A stretch of 64,000 nucleotides of DNA from SAR202 cluster bacterium bin16 (lineage in GTDB: Bacteria; Chloroflexota; Dehalococcoidia; Lucifugimonadales; Australimonadaceae). This document shows positions 5,646-52,935 of this stretch, piece after piece (positions within the stretch are counted from its first letter, which is position 1; every line of letters begins with the position of its first letter). The DNA is taken from the NCBI GenBank assembly GCA_002238425.1, contig MPMJ01000009.1, forward strand, positions 20,209 to 84,208, written 5' to 3'. The translations under genes were made by a program, and so were the position numbers. Under the pieces are notes generated by a model that made no database searches, was not told the DNA's origin, and saw only the letters and a program-made list of their open reading frames with translations.

Positions 5646-6113
5646 TCACTTCCGCATCAAGTGTGAGACAGACTCCGGCTCCATCCCTTCGAGGGAGCGG
5701 GCGATGCGCGACATGAGCGAGGGGCCATCGCGCTCGTCACCGGTGGGGCCGCCGAAGGTGCGGCGGGGTTTCAGGAGGGGTTCACGCATGGGACAGGCGC
5801 AGGTCTCACCTTGCAACCCCATGAGGTTGGCCTCGGCGTAGCCGTGGACGATGGCAGTGATGACGCGGGTGGGGTCCGGGGTGCGTCTGTTGCGGGCGCA
5901 TTGCTTCAGGTAGGCGTCGATGGGCGCAAAGGCCAGCACCGGGGCGGAAACGCGGATGGCGGCCTCAATGAGATCAAAGACCTCCGGCAAGGGTTCATCC
6001 TGATCCAGGGCCTGCTGCCAGCGGTCTGCGAAGTTCTCGGCGACGGGCAAGAGAGCGGCCTGGGCACGGAGGCAGGCGAGGTAGCGTTCCAGCGTCTTGA
6101 GGCGGGCGGTCAC
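5646..6113 (-). CDS. hypothetical protein, partner gene of HTH cassette copy 1 (GETCxCP motif)
   Basis: 155 aa. Start overlaps the stop of 6110..6562 by 4 nt. About half of aligned residues are identical by hand alignment to 51844..52218 (LERY..C..AQAAL, AYL.QC, GETC.CP). Confidence 0.6.
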   Translation of the reverse strand: MTARLKTLERYLACLRAQAALLPVAENFADRWQQALDQDEPLPEVFDLIEAAIRVSAPVLAFAPIDAYLKQCARNRRTPDPTRVITAIVHGYAEANLMGLQGETCACPMREPLLKPRRTFGGPTGDERDGPSLMSRIARSLEGMEPESVSHLMRK

Positions 6114-6562
6114 CGGGCACCGCGCTGGTTCTTCAGCATGCTGATGGCGTAGTCCATGATGTCGATCCGGTTCCGTATCTCGCTGAGTTCCTTGAGCCTG
6201 AATGCGTTCTGGAGAGCAGTCCGGACTGCGGCGTTCCGGACGTGAGGGTCGGGGCTTTCAAGGAGGTCGGCGAGGGCGATAACGCTCTTCAGGGCGAGGC
6301 CGTTGATCTCGGCGAAAGCGAGGTCGGCCACATGGCGGCGGGCCTGTTCGATCTCGGCACGGAAGTTGGGGTCCTGCATCCACCGGCTGAGGGTGTTGCG
6401 GCCGATGCGGGCGGCCTGCGCGCCCTTGCGCTGCGAAGGGGCTGAGACGATATAAGGGATCGCCAGCATCTGTTTGGGCGTGAGTTGCGCGGGCACGGGC
6501 GGCGCAGCGCCGCCTTCGCTGCTGTCGGGGTCTCGCTGAATCCTGGCTCTATCTTGCACCAT
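6110..6562 (-). CDS. helix-turn-helix protein of HTH cassette copy 1 (terminase-small-subunit-like HTH pattern)
   Basis: 150 aa. The segment AARIGRNTLSRWMQDPNFRAEIEQAR looks like an HTH. 37 of 66 core residues are identical (hand count) to 51446..51847. Confidence 0.65.
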   Translation of the reverse strand: MVQDRARIQRDPDSSEGGAAPPVPAQLTPKQMLAIPYIVSAPSQRKGAQAARIGRNTLSRWMQDPNFRAEIEQARRHVADLAFAEINGLALKSVIALADLLESPDPHVRNAAVRTALQNAFRLKELSEIRNRIDIMDYAISMLKNQRGAR

Positions 6563-6761: not shown

Positions 6762-6798
6762 CGCAACGGGCGCGTGTCACAAATGTGACGAGAGGAAG
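6762..6798 (-). promoter_or_regulatory. conserved upstream block with inverted repeat GTCACA-TT-TGTGAC followed by GCCCGTTGCG (cassette copy 1)
   Basis: The reverse complement reads CTTCC..GTCACATTTGTGACA...GCCCGTTGCG, nearly identical to 51314..51346. Flanking sequence is not conserved. Confidence 0.55.
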
Positions 6799-6806
6799 GG
6801 CTGCGA

Positions 6807-6830
6807 GATTCCCGCCTTCGCGGGAATGAC
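6807..6830 (-). repeat. 24-nt REP-like hairpin GTCATTCC-CGCGAAGGCG-GGAATC
   Basis: 8-bp stem ATTCCCGC/GCGGGAAT with a GAAG loop. Same termini as the copies at 49404 and 52239. Confidence 0.7.
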
Positions 6831-49395: not shown

Positions 49396-49403
49396 GTTCC
49401 ACC

Positions 49404-49427
49404 GTCATTCCCGCGGAGGCAGGAATC
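49404..49427 (+). repeat. 24-nt REP-like element GTCATTCC-CGCGGAGGCA-GGAATC
   Basis: Imperfect hairpin with one mismatch. Sits between the operon end and the RAYT stop. Confidence 0.65.
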
Positions 49428-49481: not shown

Positions 49482-50066
49482 CTACGGCCTTCTCCTGTGC
49501 AACACCGGGTTCTCAGCGTCGTCATCCCAGCGAGCCGGGTTCTCCATGATGTACTGGCGTATGCGGTTCAGGGCGGTTTCGTTCCGTATCACGTGTTCAT
49601 AGTAGTTGCGTTGCCAGAACGAGGCGCCCTGCGTGCCTTGGAGGGCGTTGATACGCCTGGCGGAGAACGTCTTGAAGGCCCTGACGATTTCCGACAATGC
49701 GTGGCGCGGCGCACCCCCGTCCCCGACCCCGGCCCCGGTAGGGGCAGGTTTGAAACCTGCCCCTACCCCTGTCGACGCCTCGCCATCCCCATCGTCCACA
49801 CCGCCTGCGCCTGCGCTCGTCAACACCACGATTCCATGCACGTGATTCGGCATCACCACCCAGGCATCCAACCCTACGTGCGGATAATGGCGCGGCAACT
49901 CCTCCCATACGGCCTGCACGATCCGTCCGGCCTCGCTGAGGCGCATCTCGCCTCCCAGCGCCTGGCCAAGGAGACACTCCCGGTTCCGAATGCACACTGT
50001 CACGACATACGCCCCATCACGGGCATAGTCAAAGCCGCGCAGTCGTATGGAATGCCTCCGGCGCAC
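49482..50066 (-). CDS. REP-associated tyrosine transposase (RAYT, IS200/IS605 Y1 HUH family)
   Basis: (GTG start) RRRHSIRLRGFDYARDGAYVVTVC, the HUH motif MPNHVHGIVV, and the catalytic Tyr region FWQRNYYEHVIRN. Confidence 0.8.
   Translation of the reverse strand: MRRRHSIRLRGFDYARDGAYVVTVCIRNRECLLGQALGGEMRLSEAGRIVQAVWEELPRHYPHVGLDAWVVMPNHVHGIVVLTSAGAGGVDDGDGEASTGVGAGFKPAPTGAGVGDGGAPRHALSEIVRAFKTFSARRINALQGTQGASFWQRNYYEHVIRNETALNRIRQYIMENPARWDDDAENPVLHRRRP
49737..49767. repeat. perfect 31-nt palindrome inside the RAYT coding sequence
   Basis: GGTAGGGGCAGGTTT-G-AAACCTGCCCCTACC has 15-bp arms. It encodes the GAGFKPAPTGAG insert between the HUH and Tyr regions. Confidence 0.8.
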
Positions 50067-50084: not shown

Positions 50085-51300
50085 TCAAAGGGCCAACATT
50101 GTCCTCAGGTAGGGTTAACGAATGGAACGTTCAATGAGCCACGAAAGTACGACTGCAGGTGGGAACTACAGACCACTTTACCAATCTCGCGCTCCTCGTC
50201 ACAGAGCCAAATGATGCATCCCTGTAGCAGGGACTGTGGCGTGCGATTGTCGGGTCTAGTTTCACAATGAACGCAGAACTCCTCGCTATTCACAGGTGGT
50301 TTCTCAGCAATCTTGAACGCTACTTCGCTGTAGTCATAAAGCCTTGAAGCGTCCTTGCCACAATTAGGGCAAGTATTTGCGAGGTAATTGAAAGGGAAAT
50401 AGGAACTGGGCTGCATTCCAAGAGACACGCCTTCTTGTTTGGCAAGGGCAATCTCGTCACTGTTGAATCCTTCGGGGCCGTAAAACCGCAGAAGAGGTGT
50501 ATCAGTCTTCACTACAGATTGTTGAACTATGTGAGCACAGTTTGTGCACTGTTTTTCGAATCTGTACAGGGAGCGTCGCCTTAGGGGTCCATAGCAGCCC
50601 TTGCACTTCGGTCTAGTACACACTGGAATCGATGATGCCGTTGGAGTGAGAGGTGTACCTTTATCAAGGCGTTCCAAGTCATGTACTGTTTCTACTTTAA
50701 ACACAACCAAGTATGCCTCATTCTGGCGAGCGTAATCCCAAACCGGTGCCTCCGGCTCATGCGTCACTACAACCTCAACCAGAACGCGAGGCTTCCGGTA
50801 CCGGTCAAATACTGTGACATCTGGCTGAATCGAGCCCAAAGACTCTTCTAATTCGACTGTCGACGCCAACTCGGTCAGGTTCCCCTGATGAGTATCCTGA
50901 CACTCGCAACATCGCCACCGGAAAGGAATGTCCTCTCCTCGGGAAATAGCATTGCAGATTCTATCGTGCAACAAGCGTTTCCCAAGCTTGTGAAGAAGCG
51001 ACTCCCCGTCGCAGTTCTCTTCTTGAAGATGTGCGAAGTGGTGCACATTAGTGTTACCTTTGCGCGCCACTAGTGTGCCACCGCACTCAGGGCAGACACA
51101 ATGGCATGCCAAACCTCTGGGTACATCACCTATGTGGACAAGGTGTCCATCTTTTTCGCCATATGGAATCTTGAGAGTCATTCAGAAGCACCTACCTCCA
51201 AAGCTTAGCCTGTCTCCATGCTGTGTATCACGGTTGCGATAGTCGCCGTAGCTGTCGTGCCTCCGTCTACGCTCATACAGGATAGCATCGGGTTCAGTGT
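50085..51300. other. low-GC single-gene island
   Basis: Hand counts of 60-nt lines give 24-33 G+C here, versus about 40-42 in flanking genes. Contains only 50105..51181. Confidence 0.7.
50105..51181 (-). CDS. CoiA-like PD-(D/E)xK nuclease-family protein with additional zinc ribbons
   Basis: CPECGGTLVARKGNTNVHHFAH...GESLLHKLGKRLL...IQPDVTVF...VLVEVVVTH parallels the CoiA N-terminal and nuclease motifs. Further CxxC pairs: CCECQ, CTRPKCKGC, CTNC, CPNC, CVHC. Confidence 0.7.
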   Translation of the reverse strand: MTLKIPYGEKDGHLVHIGDVPRGLACHCVCPECGGTLVARKGNTNVHHFAHLQEENCDGESLLHKLGKRLLHDRICNAISRGEDIPFRWRCCECQDTHQGNLTELASTVELEESLGSIQPDVTVFDRYRKPRVLVEVVVTHEPEAPVWDYARQNEAYLVVFKVETVHDLERLDKGTPLTPTASSIPVCTRPKCKGCYGPLRRRSLYRFEKQCTNCAHIVQQSVVKTDTPLLRFYGPEGFNSDEIALAKQEGVSLGMQPSSYFPFNYLANTCPNCGKDASRLYDYSEVAFKIAEKPPVNSEEFCVHCETRPDNRTPQSLLQGCIIWLCDEEREIGKVVCSSHLQSYFRGSLNVPFVNPT

Positions 51301-51313
51301 CCCTCCCTCTCCC

Positions 51314-51346
51314 CTTCCGTCACATTTGTGACATCTGCCCGTTGCG
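51314..51346 (+). promoter_or_regulatory. conserved upstream block with inverted repeat GTCACA-TT-TGTGAC followed by GCCCGTTGCG (cassette copy 2)
   Basis: CTTCCGTCACATTTGTGACATCTGCCCGTTGCG matches the reverse complement of 6762..6798. Confidence 0.55.
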
Positions 51347-51445: not shown

Positions 51446-51847
51446 ATGGCGCAAAATGGCTCACTTTTCAGAGATGACGCACTCACCCACCGTCAGGCAG
51501 TGGCTCTCCCGCACATCGCGGCCGAATCCAACCTGGAGCGAGCAGCCGAAGCAGCCCAGATAGGCAGGCGGACGCTCACACGGTGGATGAACGACCCCGC
51601 CTTCCGAGCGGAACTTGAGCGCATCAGGCAGAACGTCTCAGACCTCGGTTTCAACGTGGTGGAAGGACTCACCCTCAAGAGCGCTATCCGCCTCGACCAG
51701 CTGCTCGACGACCCGGACCCCAACGTACGACTCCGTGCCCTGAAGGCTGCGCTCTCCATCTCCCTCTCCGTGAAGGAGCAGAAGGAGCTCCGGCGCCGGC
51801 TCGACATGCTGGAGAACACTCAGGTCATGATGAGGCAGCAGCGATGA
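51446..51847 (+). CDS. helix-turn-helix protein of HTH cassette copy 2
   Basis: 133 aa. AAQIGRRTLTRWMNDPAFRAELERIR. Paralog of 6110..6562. Confidence 0.65.
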   Translation: MAQNGSLFRDDALTHRQAVALPHIAAESNLERAAEAAQIGRRTLTRWMNDPAFRAELERIRQNVSDLGFNVVEGLTLKSAIRLDQLLDDPDPNVRLRALKAALSISLSVKEQKELRRRLDMLENTQVMMRQQR

Positions 51848-52218
51848 GGCGCGCTACAAGAGCGCTCGAGCGGTACTACGGCTGTCTGCTGGCGCAGGCG
51901 GCGCTCGACCCCATCGCCGGGGACTACGTCTTGCGCTGGGTGGACGCGATAGAGCGCGGTGAGCACCCGCCGGACCCTACGGACCTCTTCATAGCCGCTG
52001 CAGATGTGCGTGTCCCCGTACTCAGCCCGGAGCCGGTTATGGCGTACCTCAGGCAGTGCTTCAAGACCCAGCGCATCCCGGACGAGACCCGCATCGTGCA
52101 GGCCATCGCCCACGCCTACGCGGAGCGAGACCTGATGAAGGTGGGTGAAACGTGCCACTGCCCGGCGCGGCGTCCGCTCTTCCAGCGGCCCAGGCGCGAT
52201 GGCTTCCGTGGGGACTAG
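51844..52218 (+). CDS. hypothetical protein, partner gene of HTH cassette copy 2 (GETCxCP motif)
   Basis: 124 aa. ATGA overlap with the HTH gene. Paralog of 5646..6113. Confidence 0.6.
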   Translation: MRRATRALERYYGCLLAQAALDPIAGDYVLRWVDAIERGEHPPDPTDLFIAAADVRVPVLSPEPVMAYLRQCFKTQRIPDETRIVQAIAHAYAERDLMKVGETCHCPARRPLFQRPRRDGFRGD

Positions 52219-52238: not shown

Positions 52239-52262
52239 GTCGTTCCTGCGGAGGCAGGAACC
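52239..52262 (+). repeat. 24-nt REP-like hairpin GTCGTTCC-TGCGGAGGCA-GGAACC
   Basis: Perfect 8-bp stem GTTCCTGC/GCAGGAAC with a GGAG loop. A variant of the GTCATTCC family. Confidence 0.65.
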
Positions 52263-52339: not shown

Positions 52340-52499
52340 TCTCGGGCCAGGCCCCGTTGTTGGCCAGCGCTCCGTGAGAGGATGCTGCGCGCTGAAGCGC
52401 GGGCTGCGCTCAGCATGACAACCCCCGGGGCGTTGCCCCCTTTCCCGCGACGCGCGTACGATAGCGCCCTCAAACCCGGCCACCCGCAGGAGGACCAAC

Positions 52500-52935
52500 G
52501 TGTTGCCAACCAGGATCCGAACAGCCCGCTTCGCCGGATGGCGCGCATCCCTCGCCCTGCCGCTTGTCCTCGTCATGCTCCTCGGCCTGGCCGTTGCCTG
52601 CGCCGAACCCACCCCGACGCCAACACCAACACCGACCCCCACCCCCACGCCAACCGCCACACCCACTCCCCCCCCCACCCGCCCCCCCCCCCCCCGAGCC
52701 TCCCCCTGCCGCTGGCGGAGGCGGCATCCTGGGCAAGGACCTCTTCGCCCTCCTCGACGAAGCCGACGTTGCCTGCATCAAGGAGTCGGCGGGCGAAGCC
52801 ATGTTCGCTATCGCCGAGCAGATGACCATCACCATGGCGCTGGCCAACGACCCGGCCGGGGCCGTCATCTTCCAATGCCTCTCAGAGGAGACGATCGCGC
52901 AGCTCGGCGCCGCCATCATCGCTGCAGGAGGTTGA
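52500..52935 (+). pseudogene. small PT-linker lipoprotein interrupted by a +1 frameshift in a poly-C tract
   Basis: GTG 52500 after AGGAGG gives a signal peptide, lipobox LAVAC and a PTPTPT linker. After the C-runs the sensible continuation (GILGKDLFALLDEADVACIKE...) is in the frame of track ORF 52564..52935. Confidence 0.55.
52682..52695 (+). repeat. C14 homopolymer (preceded by a C9 run at 52668-52676)
   Basis: Read directly from the sequence. Coincides with the frame change of the lipoprotein gene. Confidence 0.9.

What the first reader, a model, noticed from the sequence alone, without database searches (positions are those of the whole stretch)
50085..51300. Low-GC single-gene island encoding a CoiA-like nuclease with multiple zinc ribbons
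G+C drops sharply, to 24-33 per 60 nt, exactly over one 358-aa gene. That gene is wedged between the RAYT gene and HTH cassette copy 2. The N-terminal half parallels CoiA-family proteins: CPxCGG..L..R.G....HFAH, then ES..H...K and a D...EV.V PD-(D/E)xK-like core, with an extra CCECQ ribbon inserted. The C-terminal ~170 aa has four more CxxC pairs and no fold I recognise. A recently acquired stand-alone nuclease next to mobile-element genes is a candidate defence, homing or mobile-element-associated effector of undescribed type.
Basis: partly seen in the sequence, partly recalled or inferred. Interest (0 to 1): 0.65.

Follow-up and report, generated by a model that had tools for sequence, protein, structure and literature searches.

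The report
Horizontally acquired zinc-rich CoiA-like nuclease gene
A single foreign-looking gene in a Dehalococcoidia genome encodes a zinc-rich DNA-cutting enzyme of a widespread but unstudied family that moves between bacteria and often sits among mobile-element and anti-phage genes, so it is probably a stand-alone conflict or defence nuclease, though this is untested.

Summary
ORF 50105-51181 (-) encodes 358 aa. Its GC is 0.50 and GC3 0.51, against GC3 0.91-0.95 in neighbouring core genes, and it is the only low-GC island in the 64 kb window.

The protein has three conserved modules:
- a CoiA_N-type C2H2 zinc finger (Pfam match above the gathering score);
- a PD-(D/E)xK nuclease core (E60/H64/K68, E112, D121, E136, each conserved in 94-100% of 127 representatives) with an inserted Cys/His knuckle;
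- a 130-aa double-zinc-ribbon C-terminal domain (AF2 pLDDT 92.5) with no PDB match, repeated two or three times in some relatives.

The family is not rare: 430 clusters at 50% identity score E<1e-30. It is patchily spread over many phyla, has no conserved neighbour gene, and has lower GC than its flanks in 45 of 50 loci. Most contexts examined in detail hold transposases, integrases, plasmids or defence genes.

The gene is not a competence CoiA orthologue, because the CoiA nuclease model does not match. It matches no known defence family as a whole protein.

A sister genome carries a syntenic allele with dS 1.38, against 0.19-0.37 in the flanks, and dN/dS 0.14. The enzyme is therefore functional and the alleles are old or exchanged, not simply "recently acquired".

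Verdict: a new variant of a known kind; a defence role is plausible but unproven.

The parts
50105..51181 (-). Complete CDS, 358 aa (P0001): ZnF - nuclease - C-terminal zinc-ribbon domain - tail
   Evidence: ORF list. The identical protein occurs on 19 contigs from several metagenomes. dN/dS is 0.14 against the syntenic allele.
51014..51181 (-). Residues 1-56: beta-rich N-terminal C2H2 zinc finger (C30, C33, H48, H51), CoiA_N type
   Evidence: Pfam PF25164 scores 3.4e-7, 30.1 bits, above the gathering score of 26.3. The residues are 96-99% conserved in 127 representatives. The same finger is detected at the N-terminus of DruB models and reported in PD-lambda-4B.
50648..51013 (-). Residues 57-178: PD-(D/E)xK nuclease core. 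Helix a1 carries E60/H64/K68; E112 follows b1; P120-D121 lies at b2; E136 lies in b3; then H141 and P143.
   Evidence: AF2 secondary structure. The Foldseek PDB list is dominated by PD-(D/E)xK nucleases, all with weak E-values. BFVD match EsV-1-12 has E 2e-8. Conservation is 94-100%.
50879..50926 (-). Residues 86-101: inserted beta-hairpin knuckle W89-x-C91-x-x-C94...H98. It probably binds zinc together with C57 (inferred).
   Evidence: Conserved at 96-100% in the family. Absent from the ZnF-nuclease-only plasmid relatives.
50246..50635 (-). Residues 183-312: C-terminal domain with C188 and two four-Cys sites (C193/C196/C212/C215 and C271/C274/C303/C306). The fold is not found in the PDB.
   Evidence: AF2 model of residues 176-316 has pLDDT 92.5 and pTM 0.82. 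Best PDB Foldseek match has E 0.76 and TM at most 0.22. The profile search of PDB sequences found nothing significant. The domain is repeated two or three times in tandem in 9 relatives.
50108..50245 (-). Residues 313-358: lineage-specific tail with C322, C327, C338 and H341. Found only in the six closest homologues.
   Evidence: Alignment. pLDDT is below 50. The wider family ends near residue 307-312.
51195..51199 (-). GGAGG ribosome-binding site, 13 nt upstream of the ATG
   Evidence: Read from the sequence. The 20-30 nt upstream of the start are the only flanking DNA conserved between non-syntenic copies.
51318..51333 (.). Palindrome CGTCACATTTGTGACA in the 265-nt divergent intergenic region. 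It is shared with HTH cassette copy 1 (about 6772-6787) and is probably the operator of the HTH cassette, not part of the nuclease gene.
49404..49427 (+). REP-type hairpin GTCATTCCCGCGGAGGCAGGAATC, at the left edge of the variable segment
   Evidence: Only three copies exist in the window, all beside HTH cassettes.
52239..52262 (+). Second REP-type hairpin, at the right edge of the variable segment
49482..50066 (-). RAYT (REP-associated tyrosine transposase) gene. It is a neighbour, not a partner, and is absent from the sister genome.
51446..52218 (+). HTH133 + orf124 cassette, transcribed divergently from the nuclease gene. HTH133 accompanies the nuclease gene only here and in the sister genome.

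Best explanation
The gene encodes an active, metal-dependent DNA endonuclease of a widespread but uncharacterised family. The conserved architecture is a CoiA_N-type C2H2 zinc finger, a PD-(D/E)xK core and a double-zinc-ribbon C-terminal domain (CTD).

Proposed chemistry (inferred): D121 (strand b2) and E136 (b3) hold Mg2+, with E60 and/or E112. K68 on helix a1 supplies the lysine missing from the E-V-V motif, as in other PD-(D/E)xK families whose lysine has migrated.

Proposed substrate choice (inferred): three or four structural zinc sites (N-terminal finger, inserted knuckle, two CTD ribbons) hold the nucleic acid. Two things make single-stranded or branched DNA the most likely substrate. 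CoiA, which carries the same finger, is an ssDNA endonuclease. The CTD is multiplied in tandem in some relatives, as modular DNA-binding zinc domains are.

Biology: the gene is a solitary accessory gene that circulates horizontally essentially as a bare ORF. I think it most likely acts in genetic conflict, as a one-protein nuclease that attacks invading DNA (phage, plasmid or incoming single strands). It would avoid host DNA by substrate structure or modification rather than through a partner methylase.

Shown: gene, composition, fold, conserved residues, purifying selection, horizontal distribution, contexts.
Inferred: catalytic roles, zinc binding, substrate, defence role.

Sub-probabilities: functional zinc-rich PD-(D/E)xK nuclease about 0.85; horizontally circulating accessory gene about 0.9; defence or conflict role about 0.45-0.5.
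For: Enzyme.
- CoiA_N match above the gathering score.
- Full-length AF2 model with pLDDT 80 and the PD-(D/E)xK topology a1-b1-b2-b3-a2-b4.
- Foldseek PDB hits are almost all PD-(D/E)xK nucleases: YaeQ, DrdV, BstEII, PA endonuclease, BpuSI, Can2, SfsA, NucS, FAN1.
- Viral relatives with E down to 2e-8.
- C30, C33, H48, H51, E60, H64, K68, E112, D121, E136 and H141 are 94-100% conserved in 127 representatives, and all but H141 are invariant in an alignment that includes the shorter plasmid relatives, where H141 is conserved in at least 90%.
- dN/dS is 0.14.
- CoiA is an ssDNA endonuclease with a C2H2 finger and catalytic D (b2) and E (b3).

CTD.
- pLDDT 92.5.
- Two or three tandem copies in 9 relatives.

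Horizontal, solitary gene.
- GC3 0.51 against 0.92 in neighbours.
- Lower GC than flanks in 45 of 50 loci, p = 1e-8.
- Present in at least 12 phyla, patchily.
- No neighbour family shared by more than 3 of 54 loci.
- Homology between non-syntenic copies is limited to the ORF plus about 25 nt.
- dS 1.38 against 0.19-0.37 in flanks at the syntenic locus.

Conflict context.
- Type I R-M/PIN/AAA_23/SLFN island.
- Integrases and transposases.
- Type ISP R-M plus DUF2726.
- McrBC on a plasmid.
- Nostoc plasmid with type I R-M and VapC.
- SMC_N/AAA_23 cluster.
- Bil-like ThiF operon plus ImmA.
- PADLOC hits among the +/-3 neighbours: LmuB/C, SduA, PD-T4-6, TmtA, Tmn, Ppl, R-M types I/II/IIG.
- The same zinc finger occurs in validated defence proteins PD-lambda-4B and DruB.
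Against: - No activity has been measured, and the fold matches to solved structures are individually weak (E at least 0.03).
- There is no whole-protein match to any PADLOC model.
- No homologue was found in phage genomes or viral contigs.
- Many neighbours are ordinary housekeeping genes, such as PGK, TIM, gyrase and glycoside hydrolases.
- I had no matched random-locus control, so defence enrichment is not quantified.
- In this window the neighbours are catabolic genes, not defence genes.
- The canonical lysine of the ExK motif is absent. Its replacement by K68 is an inference.
Confidence: 0.5

Rival explanations
1. A DNA-processing nuclease for recombination, repair or element maintenance. 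Like CoiA or YraN, it would cut D-loops, flaps or single strands during recombination. It would be carried by plasmids and islands for their own establishment or stability, or used by the host, rather than for immunity.
For: - CoiA, the only studied protein with this finger-plus-nuclease arrangement, resolves transformation D-loops.
- ZnF-nuclease relatives lie on more than 1500 plasmids, 1275 of them conjugative, near transfer genes (IncHI trh region; T4SS region of pMU3262).
- The Nostoc plasmid copy sits beside ParA.
- Many chromosomal copies lie among housekeeping genes.
Against: - Distribution is patchy and composition foreign, unlike a core repair function.
- The plasmid relatives lack the knuckle and the CTD, so they are a different subfamily.
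- There is no association with recA, dprA, com or any other recombination gene.
- Defence genes are frequent among the neighbours.
Confidence: 0.25
2. A selfish free-standing homing-type endonuclease gene. It would cut a specific site in genomes that lack it and be copied in by repair. This would explain why the mobile unit is the bare ORF and why two genomes carry it at the same site.
For: - Homology between copies stops at the ORF edges, with no terminal repeats.
- The same insertion point is used in two genomes, with alleles far older than the flanks.
- In cassette copy 1 the REP and the palindrome are 16 nt apart. In copy 2 they are separated by the 1.9 kb that holds this gene and RAYT.
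- PD-(D/E)xK homing endonucleases exist (background knowledge).
Against: - Copies in other genomes sit in unrelated sites with no shared flanking target.
- Only one copy was seen in each locus fetched.
- Copies differ by 30% or more at the DNA level, so there is no sign of recent spread.
- There is no intron, intein or phage association.
- Strong purifying selection across a very old, diverse family is unusual for homing genes, which decay quickly.
Confidence: 0.08
3. The toxin, or regulated effector, of a local two- or three-gene module with the divergently transcribed HTH133/orf124 cassette. The HTH protein would repress or neutralise the nuclease through the shared palindromic operator.
For: - The gene is arranged divergently from HTH133, with a shared 265-nt intergenic region containing a palindrome.
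- HTH133 and the nuclease gene are the two genes that diverge together between the window and the sister genome: 70.5% DNA identity, HTH133 dS 0.89.
Against: - HTH133 is found next to the nuclease only in this species and its sister, and in none of the other loci fetched.
- The HTH cassette with the same palindrome exists at 5646-6562 without any nuclease.
- orf124 is absent from the sister locus.
Confidence: 0.05
4. An ordinary competence CoiA orthologue, or alternatively a decaying, non-functional foreign relic.
For: - NCBI labels some family members "competence protein CoiA family protein".
- The composition is foreign.
Against: - The CoiA nuclease model PF06054 never matches.
- The C-terminus is different, and the host is Dehalococcoidia rather than Bacillota.
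- The ORF is intact and identical on 19 contigs, dN/dS is 0.14, and all key residues are conserved.
Confidence: 0.03

Closest known systems
CoiA (competence protein; Pfam CoiA_N PF25164 + CoiA nuclease PF06054), S. pneumoniae / B. subtilis YjbF
   Same: - N-terminal C2H2 zinc finger, with a significant Pfam match.
- The finger is followed by a PD-(D/E)xK nuclease with D in b2 and E in b3, a non-canonical third motif, and a basic residue elsewhere taking the lysine's place.
- An extended C-terminal region of unknown function.
- CoiA is an ssDNA endonuclease (bioRxiv 10.1101/2024.02.06.579203; PMC1189080).
   Different: - The nuclease domain does not match the CoiA model.
- The motif is PD...E-V-V with K68 on helix a1, not PD-ExQ plus Arg.
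- An extra Cys/His knuckle is inserted before b1.
- The C-terminus is a double-zinc-ribbon domain.
- The gene is a horizontally moving island gene in many phyla, not a competence-regulon gene of Bacillota.
PD-lambda-4 protein B (Vassallo et al. 2022, PMC9519451)
   Same: Carries the CoiA-type N-terminal finger (HHpred match of residues 1-66 to the old PF06054 model, which then included the N-terminus) and is experimentally validated in phage defence.
   Different: - It is part of a two-gene system with an AAA-type ATPase.
- Similarity is limited to the finger.
- No PADLOC model, including any for PD-lambda-4 the database holds, matched the target or the family as a whole protein.
- No conserved ATPase neighbour is present here.
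Druantia DruB (PADLOC PDLC00005/00004)
   Same: 39 of 127 family members match the first 50-80 positions of the DruB profile (best E 6e-7). This is the same finger at the N-terminus of a defence protein of unknown function.
   Different: - DruB is about 500-550 aa, and the rest of it does not match.
- DruB works with DruA, DruC, DruD and DruE, none of which is a conserved neighbour here.
- The window protein itself does not reach the threshold.
ZnF-nuclease-only 'CoiA family' proteins of conjugative plasmids (e.g. WP_024200486 on IncHI pO111_1; WP_231293872 on pMU3262; WP_067731786 on an Acinetobacter plasmid)
   Same: Same finger and the same catalytic constellation (C30, C33, H48, H51, E60, H64, K68, E112, P120-D121, E136 invariant in alignment A8). 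They are also carried on mobile elements.
   Different: They lack the W-x-C-x-x-C...H knuckle and the zinc-ribbon CTD, and carry other or no C-terminal regions. Their function is unknown as well.
Solitary PD-(D/E)xK defence nucleases (e.g. Shedu SduA; type IV restriction enzymes such as Mrr/McrBC-type)
   Same: A stand-alone or nearly stand-alone PD-(D/E)xK nuclease without a cognate methylase, located in variable islands. It would have to distinguish foreign from self DNA by structure, DNA ends or modification.
   Different: No sequence or profile similarity (PADLOC negative). The sensing or binding domains here are zinc modules of a different, unmatched fold.

Membership tests
CoiA competence nuclease family | N-terminal C2H2 zinc finger (Pfam CoiA_N, PF25164) | tested here: met
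   30.1 bits, E 3.4e-7, gathering score 26.3. C30, C33, H48 and H51 are 96-99% conserved.
CoiA competence nuclease family | Nuclease domain recognised by the CoiA nuclease model (PF06054) | tested here: not met
   No PF06054 hit for the target at E<=1, for 10 diverse family members at E<=0.01, or for 5 plasmid 'CoiA family' proteins at E<=1. A profile-profile test could not be run because no CoiA alignment was available.
CoiA competence nuclease family | PD-ExQ active-site variant with a conserved Arg at the swapped-Lys position (Kosinski 2005, PMC1189080) | tested here: not met
   The sequence reads P120-D121 ... E136-V-V, with no Q. A Lys (K68, 94% conserved) sits on helix a1.
CoiA competence nuclease family | Competence-regulon gene, essentially confined to Bacillota, vertically inherited | tested here: not met
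   The host is a Dehalococcoidia MAG. The family is spread patchily over many phyla with foreign composition. Expression could not be tested.
PD-(D/E)xK nuclease superfamily | a/b core (a1-b1-b2-b3-a2-b4) with acidic residues at b2 and b3 and a Lys | tested here: met
   AF2 topology. The Foldseek PDB hit list is dominated by PD-(D/E)xK enzymes, though each hit is weak. D121 is 100%, E136 96%, K68 94%, E60 96% and E112 96% conserved. Active-site geometry was not inspected because no coordinates were available.
PD-(D/E)xK nuclease superfamily | Metal-dependent phosphodiester cleavage | not testable with these tools
   Needs biochemistry.
PD-lambda-4 defence system | Two-gene operon: AAA-type ATPase (A) plus CoiA-finger protein (B); whole-protein similarity to B | tested here: not met
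   PADLOC gives no hit for the target and no PD-lambda-4 hit in 127 members. There is no conserved neighbour.
Druantia (DruB) | Full-length DruB similarity and the DruA/C/D/E gene set | tested here: not met
   Only DruB profile positions about 7-78 of 552 match, in 39 of 127 members. No Druantia genes recur among the neighbours.
Type II restriction-modification | Adjacent cognate DNA methyltransferase | tested here: not met
   No methylase lies next to the gene in the window. Methylases among neighbours elsewhere are sporadic and belong to other systems.
Type IV (modification-dependent) restriction | Solitary nuclease with a domain that reads modified bases | tested here: inconclusive
   The solitary nuclease is confirmed. 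The CTD has no match to known reader domains, but a new reader fold cannot be excluded.
Free-standing homing endonuclease | Defined target site occupied by the gene; recent spread; often in phage, intron or intein | tested here: inconclusive
   The same site is occupied in two related genomes. Other copies lie at unrelated sites, are deeply diverged and have no phage link.
REP/RAYT element cargo | Consistent linkage with a RAYT gene and REP repeats | tested here: not met
   RAYT is absent from the sister locus and from all other loci. The REPs flank the segment only here.

The most novel reading that the evidence does not exclude
The family is a new class of one-protein immune nuclease. A previously unseen, tandem-repeatable double-zinc-ribbon domain, working with the CoiA-type finger (which also heads DruB and PD-lambda-4B), would recognise invading single-stranded DNA or recombination and replication intermediates and direct a PD-(D/E)xK core to cut them. 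The old, strongly diverged alleles kept at one chromosomal site would reflect balancing or diversifying selection by the mobile elements it targets.
Probability: 0.22. Interest if true: 0.7.

Novelty: new variant of a known kind. Interest (0 to 1): 0.45.

Why it matters
- It separates a large, cross-phylum group of proteins labelled "CoiA family" or "hypothetical" from true competence CoiA. It defines their architecture and points to testable catalytic residues (D121, E136, K68, E60/E112) and zinc sites.
- It identifies a confidently modelled 130-aa zinc-ribbon domain with no counterpart among solved structures, and this domain can be multiplied in tandem.
- It shows that the CoiA-type finger recurs at the N-terminus of two validated but mechanistically obscure defence proteins, DruB and PD-lambda-4B. 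Working out what the finger recognises here could therefore inform those systems too.
- If the defence role is confirmed, it would add a compact single-gene system found from Dehalococcoidia to gut Bacteroidota.

Tried and rejected
1. The first word-indexed homologue search suggested a tiny family of 13 proteins. The exhaustive profile search showed that this was an artefact of the index.
2. The REP match at 49402-49427 was tested as an insertion boundary. It is a REP hairpin present three times in the window, always beside an HTH cassette. The REP/palindrome spacing (16 nt in copy 1, 1.9 kb in copy 2) is suggestive of insertion but is not proof.
3. RAYT and HTH133/orf124 were tested as functional partners and rejected. 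RAYT is absent from every locus outside this species, and HTH133 is found only here and in the sister genome.
4. A conserved neighbour gene was looked for in 54 loci. None was found.
5. tblastn against phages and a viral-contig scan found no match.
6. The search for related loci with the 127-sequence alignment failed because no stretch was conserved enough. It was rerun with the 12-sequence alignment.
7. A word-indexed search with the CTD alone, meant to find other architectures, returned one protein and was uninformative.
8. PDB searches by sequence, by profile and by fold found nothing significant for the CTD.
9. A literature search for 'CoiA-like', 'DUF7828' and 'DUF7830' returned only irrelevant papers. 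There are no mechanistic papers on DruB.
10. The sigma-70 promoter and terminator scan found nothing above chance, and it is not informative for this phylum.
11. A formal defence-enrichment control was not attempted.
Full report
**1. The observation**

The window holds a 358-aa ORF at 50105..51181 on the minus strand. A GGAGG lies 13 nt upstream of its ATG (sequence).

Its composition is strongly atypical.
- GC is 0.50 and GC3 is 0.507.
- Seven flanking core genes have GC3 of 0.91-0.95.
- The adjacent RAYT, HTH133 and orf124 genes are intermediate, at 0.75-0.84.
- In 600-nt windows it is the only substantial low-GC island in the 64 kb: minimum 0.49, window mean 0.651, SD 0.031.

- A RAYT gene lies at 49482-50066 (-).
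- An HTH133/orf124 cassette lies at 51446-52218 (+). It has a second copy at 5646-6562 (-) with 45-49% aa identity.

**2. The protein**

Pfam recognises only the N-terminal CoiA_N domain: residues 28-58, 30.1 bits against a gathering score of 26.3. PADLOC, PHROGs and NCBIfam give nothing for the target.

A 12-sequence alignment gave an AlphaFold2 model with pLDDT 80 and pTM 0.68. Confidence is low only after residue ~310. The model shows three modules.
- Residues 1-56 form a beta-rich module around C30/C33/H48/H51.
- Residues 57-178 have the PD-(D/E)xK topology: helix a1 (59-81), a small hairpin (86-101), b1 (108-111), b2 (122-125), b3 (131-138), a2, b4 and a3.
- A C-terminal domain follows.

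Foldseek against the PDB gave only weak hits (E at least 0.03). Nearly all are PD-(D/E)xK nucleases: YaeQ, DrdV, BstEII, influenza PA, BpuSI, Can2, SfsA, NucS, Bax1 and FAN1. Against predicted viral structures there are significant matches over about 200 residues, led by EsV-1-12 at E 2e-8, and a phage 'competence protein' also appears.

Across 127 full-length representatives the following residues are 92-100% conserved:
- C30, C33, H48, H51;
- C57, E60, H64, K68;
- W89, C91, C94, H98;
- E112, D121 (100%), E136, H141;
- C188, C193, C196, C212, C215, C271, C274, C303, C306.

The acidic residues sit where the fold expects them, D121 at b2 and E136 in b3. The ExK lysine is replaced (E136-V-V), and an invariant lysine, K68, sits on a1. 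This resembles known PD-(D/E)xK families whose lysine has migrated (PMC1189080). That K68 is catalytic is my inference.

**3. The C-terminal domain**

Residues 176-316 were modelled alone with a 45-sequence alignment and gave pLDDT 92.5 and pTM 0.82.
- No PDB structure matches. The best has E 0.76 and TM at most 0.22, and the only recognisable weak similarities are to zinc-ribbon modules of serine integrases and USPs.
- A family profile finds no significant PDB sequence either. E. coli topoisomerase I zinc ribbons score E 0.38.
- Local HMMs show the architecture ZnF-nuclease-CTD in 168 of the 202 proteins held.
- Nine proteins carry two or three tandem CTDs. Multiplication of this kind is typical of modular nucleic-acid-binding zinc domains; this reading is an inference.

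The last 46 residues (313-358), with C322/C327/C338/H341, exist only in the six closest homologues and are modelled poorly.

**4. Family size and naming**

The word-indexed search found only 13 relatives. The exhaustive profile search of 1.84 billion representatives found 12,159 hits at E<=1e-3, 5,652 at E<=1e-10 and 430 at E<=1e-30. The top 150 are mostly about 310 aa long and cover profile positions 1-307. The family is therefore widespread.

Source names are 'hypothetical protein' or generic zinc-ribbon labels.

In PLSDB, 1,544 plasmids, 1,275 of them conjugative, encode relatives of the N-terminal half. Two cyanobacterial plasmids encode the full architecture. Some of these proteins are annotated 'competence protein CoiA family protein'. 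That name rests on the finger alone, because these proteins hit CoiA_N, DUF7828 and DUF7830 but never the CoiA nuclease model PF06054. The target and ten diverse family members do not hit PF06054 either.

Alignment with the plasmid proteins shows the same finger and the same E60/H64/K68/E112/P120-D121/E136 constellation. They have no W-x-C-x-x-C...H knuckle and no CTD.

**5. Evolution and mobility**

The identical protein occurs on 19 contigs from several metagenomes, always in the same context. One of them is a Dehalococcoidia-type MAG, GCA_034428675.1.

A sister Dehalococcoidia genome carries a 69%-identical allele at the syntenic locus. That locus has no RAYT and no orf124.
- The flanks are 86-92% identical at the DNA level.
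- The HTH133-plus-nuclease segment is only 70.5% identical.
- By Nei-Gojobori, the nuclease gene has dS 1.38 and dN 0.19, so dN/dS is 0.14.
- HTH133 has dS 0.89.
- Seven flanking genes have dS 0.19-0.37.

The protein is therefore under purifying selection. The two alleles are several times older than the genomes around them. This points to allele replacement, repeated acquisition at one site, or long-maintained polymorphism, and not to a single recent acquisition or plain vertical descent.

Other features point to horizontal movement.
- All six close homologues keep GC 0.47-0.51 whatever the host GC, which ranges from 0.56 to 0.66.
- Across 50 loci from many phyla the gene has lower GC than its flanks in 45. 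The median difference is -8.4 points, it reaches -27 points, and Wilcoxon p is 1e-8.
- Between non-syntenic copies, DNA homology covers only the ORF and about 20-30 nt upstream, with no terminal repeats.
- The taxonomic spread is patchy: Dehalococcoidia, Brocadiaceae, Verrucomicrobiota, Cyanobacteria, many Bacteroidota, Bacillota, Gammaproteobacteria, Treponema, Acidobacteriota, Campylobacterota, Actinomycetes and an archaeal MAG.

**6. Context**

No neighbour family recurs in more than 3 of 54 loci, so the gene works alone or with unlinked host factors. HTH133 accompanies it only here and in the sister genome, and RAYT only here.

The +/-3 neighbours (262 ORFs) are heterogeneous.
- Housekeeping enzymes are common.
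- Mobile-element and restriction genes also appear: phage integrases, DDE transposases, AAA_21, ResIII, and several methylases and restriction enzymes.
- PADLOC finds LmuB/LmuC, SduA, PD-T4-6, TmtA, Tmn, Ppl, SoFic, mads proteins and type I/II/IIG R-M components among them.

Contexts looked at individually:
- a type I R-M/PIN/AAA_23/SLFN island;
- integrase, resolvase and transposase clusters;
- a type ISP R-M/DUF2726/radical-SAM island;
- an integrase-bounded element in Bacteroidota;
- a Nostoc plasmid beside ParA and a type I R-M/VapC cluster;
- an Acinetobacter plasmid beside McrBC;
- directly after an SMC_N/AAA_23 four-gene cluster;
- directly after a Bil-like ThiF operon with an ImmA peptidase;
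- one insertion among sugar-metabolism genes beside a DUF2442/DUF4160 pair.

Most of these contexts hold mobile elements or defence genes. I had no matched control, so the enrichment is qualitative.

**7. Local anatomy**

The REP hairpin GTCRTTCCYGCGRAGGCRGGAAYC occurs only three times in the window, always beside an HTH cassette: 6807-6830 (-), 49404-49427 (+) and 52239-52262 (+).

Upstream of cassette copy 1, the REP is followed after 16 nt by the palindrome CGTCACATTTGTGACA. At copy 2 the same two elements are separated by the 1.9 kb that holds RAYT and the nuclease gene. This is compatible with insertion of the nuclease gene between the REP and the operator of a pre-existing cassette, but it does not prove it.

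**8. Comparison with what is known**

CoiA has three relevant features: an N-terminal C2H2 finger, an atypical PD-(D/E)xK site with catalytic D (b2) and E (b3), and ssDNA endonuclease activity that resolves transformation D-loops (bioRxiv 10.1101/2024.02.06.579203). An earlier analysis described a PD-ExQ motif plus a conserved Arg (PMC1189080).

The target shares the finger and the fold. It fails four CoiA criteria: the nuclease model, the motif, the C-terminus and the biology. It works like a CoiA-type zinc-finger nuclease but is not a CoiA.

The same finger heads two proteins of validated defence systems.
- PD-lambda-4B: residues 1-66 match (Vassallo 2022, PMC9519451).
- Druantia DruB: 39 of 127 family members hit DruB profile positions ~7-78 of 552, best E 6e-7.

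These are domain-level links only. No whole-protein defence family matches.

**9. Verdict**

The gene encodes a functional, zinc-rich PD-(D/E)xK endonuclease of a widespread, horizontally circulating, solitary accessory family with a C-terminal domain not seen in solved structures. A role in conflict with invading DNA is the best-supported reading, at about 0.45-0.5. The main rival is a recombination or element-maintenance nuclease, at about 0.25. Homing, toxin-antitoxin and competence readings are much less likely.

It is a new variant of a known kind. It is interesting chiefly for three things: the unmatched repeatable zinc domain, the recurrence of the finger in DruB and PD-lambda-4B, and the unusually old alleles at one site.

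Noticed in passing
window 5646-6562 (-) and 51446-52218 (+); palindromes about 6772-6787 and 51318-51333; REPs 6807-6830, 49404-49427, 52239-52262: A two-gene cassette occurs twice in the window at 45-49% aa identity. It consists of an HTH protein of 133 or 150 aa with a weak PHROG 'terminase small subunit' match (2e-7), and an unknown protein of 124 or 155 aa whose start overlaps the HTH gene's end by 4 nt. Each copy is preceded by the same palindrome CGTCACATTTGTGACA and a REP hairpin. Both copies lie among Rieske-oxygenase, amidohydrolase and SDR catabolic genes. The cassette's function is unknown.
   Followed up: partly
window 49482-50066 (-), palindrome 49737-49767: The RAYT ORF has a low-complexity Gly/Ala/Val-rich middle that contains a perfect 15+15 nt palindrome (GGTAGGGGCAGGTTT/AAACCTGCCCCTACC) in frame. 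Pfam Y1_Tnp matches only its C-terminal part, and the NCBIfam RAYT score (67) is below the cut-off (80). The gene may carry an in-frame palindromic insertion and may be degenerate.
   Followed up: partly
PADLOC DruB models PDLC00005/00004, profile positions about 7-78; family members P0011, P0012, P0014, P0018, P0022, P0023: The N-terminus of Druantia DruB (function unknown) appears to be a CoiA_N-type C2H2 zinc finger. The same finger is reported for PD-lambda-4B. I found no paper that mentions this link.
   Followed up: partly
L009 9054-9911 and L079 6521-7918: In two unrelated loci a ThiF/E1-like gene lies immediately upstream of the nuclease gene on the same strand. In L079 it is part of a Bil-like operon with DUF2604 and BilD_N hits. 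This could be coincidence within defence islands or an occasional functional link.
   Followed up: no
P0026, P0028, P0047, P0061, P0069, P0078 (and cluster mates P0166, P0167, P0169): Some family members carry two or three tandem copies of the ~120-aa zinc-ribbon C-terminal domain and are up to 675 aa long.
   Followed up: partly
window 50108-50245 (-), residues 313-358: The lineage-specific tail has a conserved C-x4-C-x10-C-x2-H pattern (C322, C327, C338, H341) and the motif HLQSY. It is present only in the six closest homologues and may form a fifth metal site. The AF2 model is unreliable in this region.
   Followed up: no
window about 52400-52850: This stretch has very strong negative GC skew (-0.36 to -0.39) and GC 0.71-0.73. 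It encodes a Thr/Pro repeat (TPTPTP...) after a signal-peptide-like start, in the small gene between the island and the amidohydrolase gene. It is probably a lipoprotein linker.
   Followed up: no
L078 2607-7983: An unannotated four-gene cluster (423, 176, 641 and 547 aa) lies directly upstream of a family member. The 641-aa product has weak SMC_N/AAA_23 hits. It looks like a defence system that Pfam does not name.
   Followed up: no
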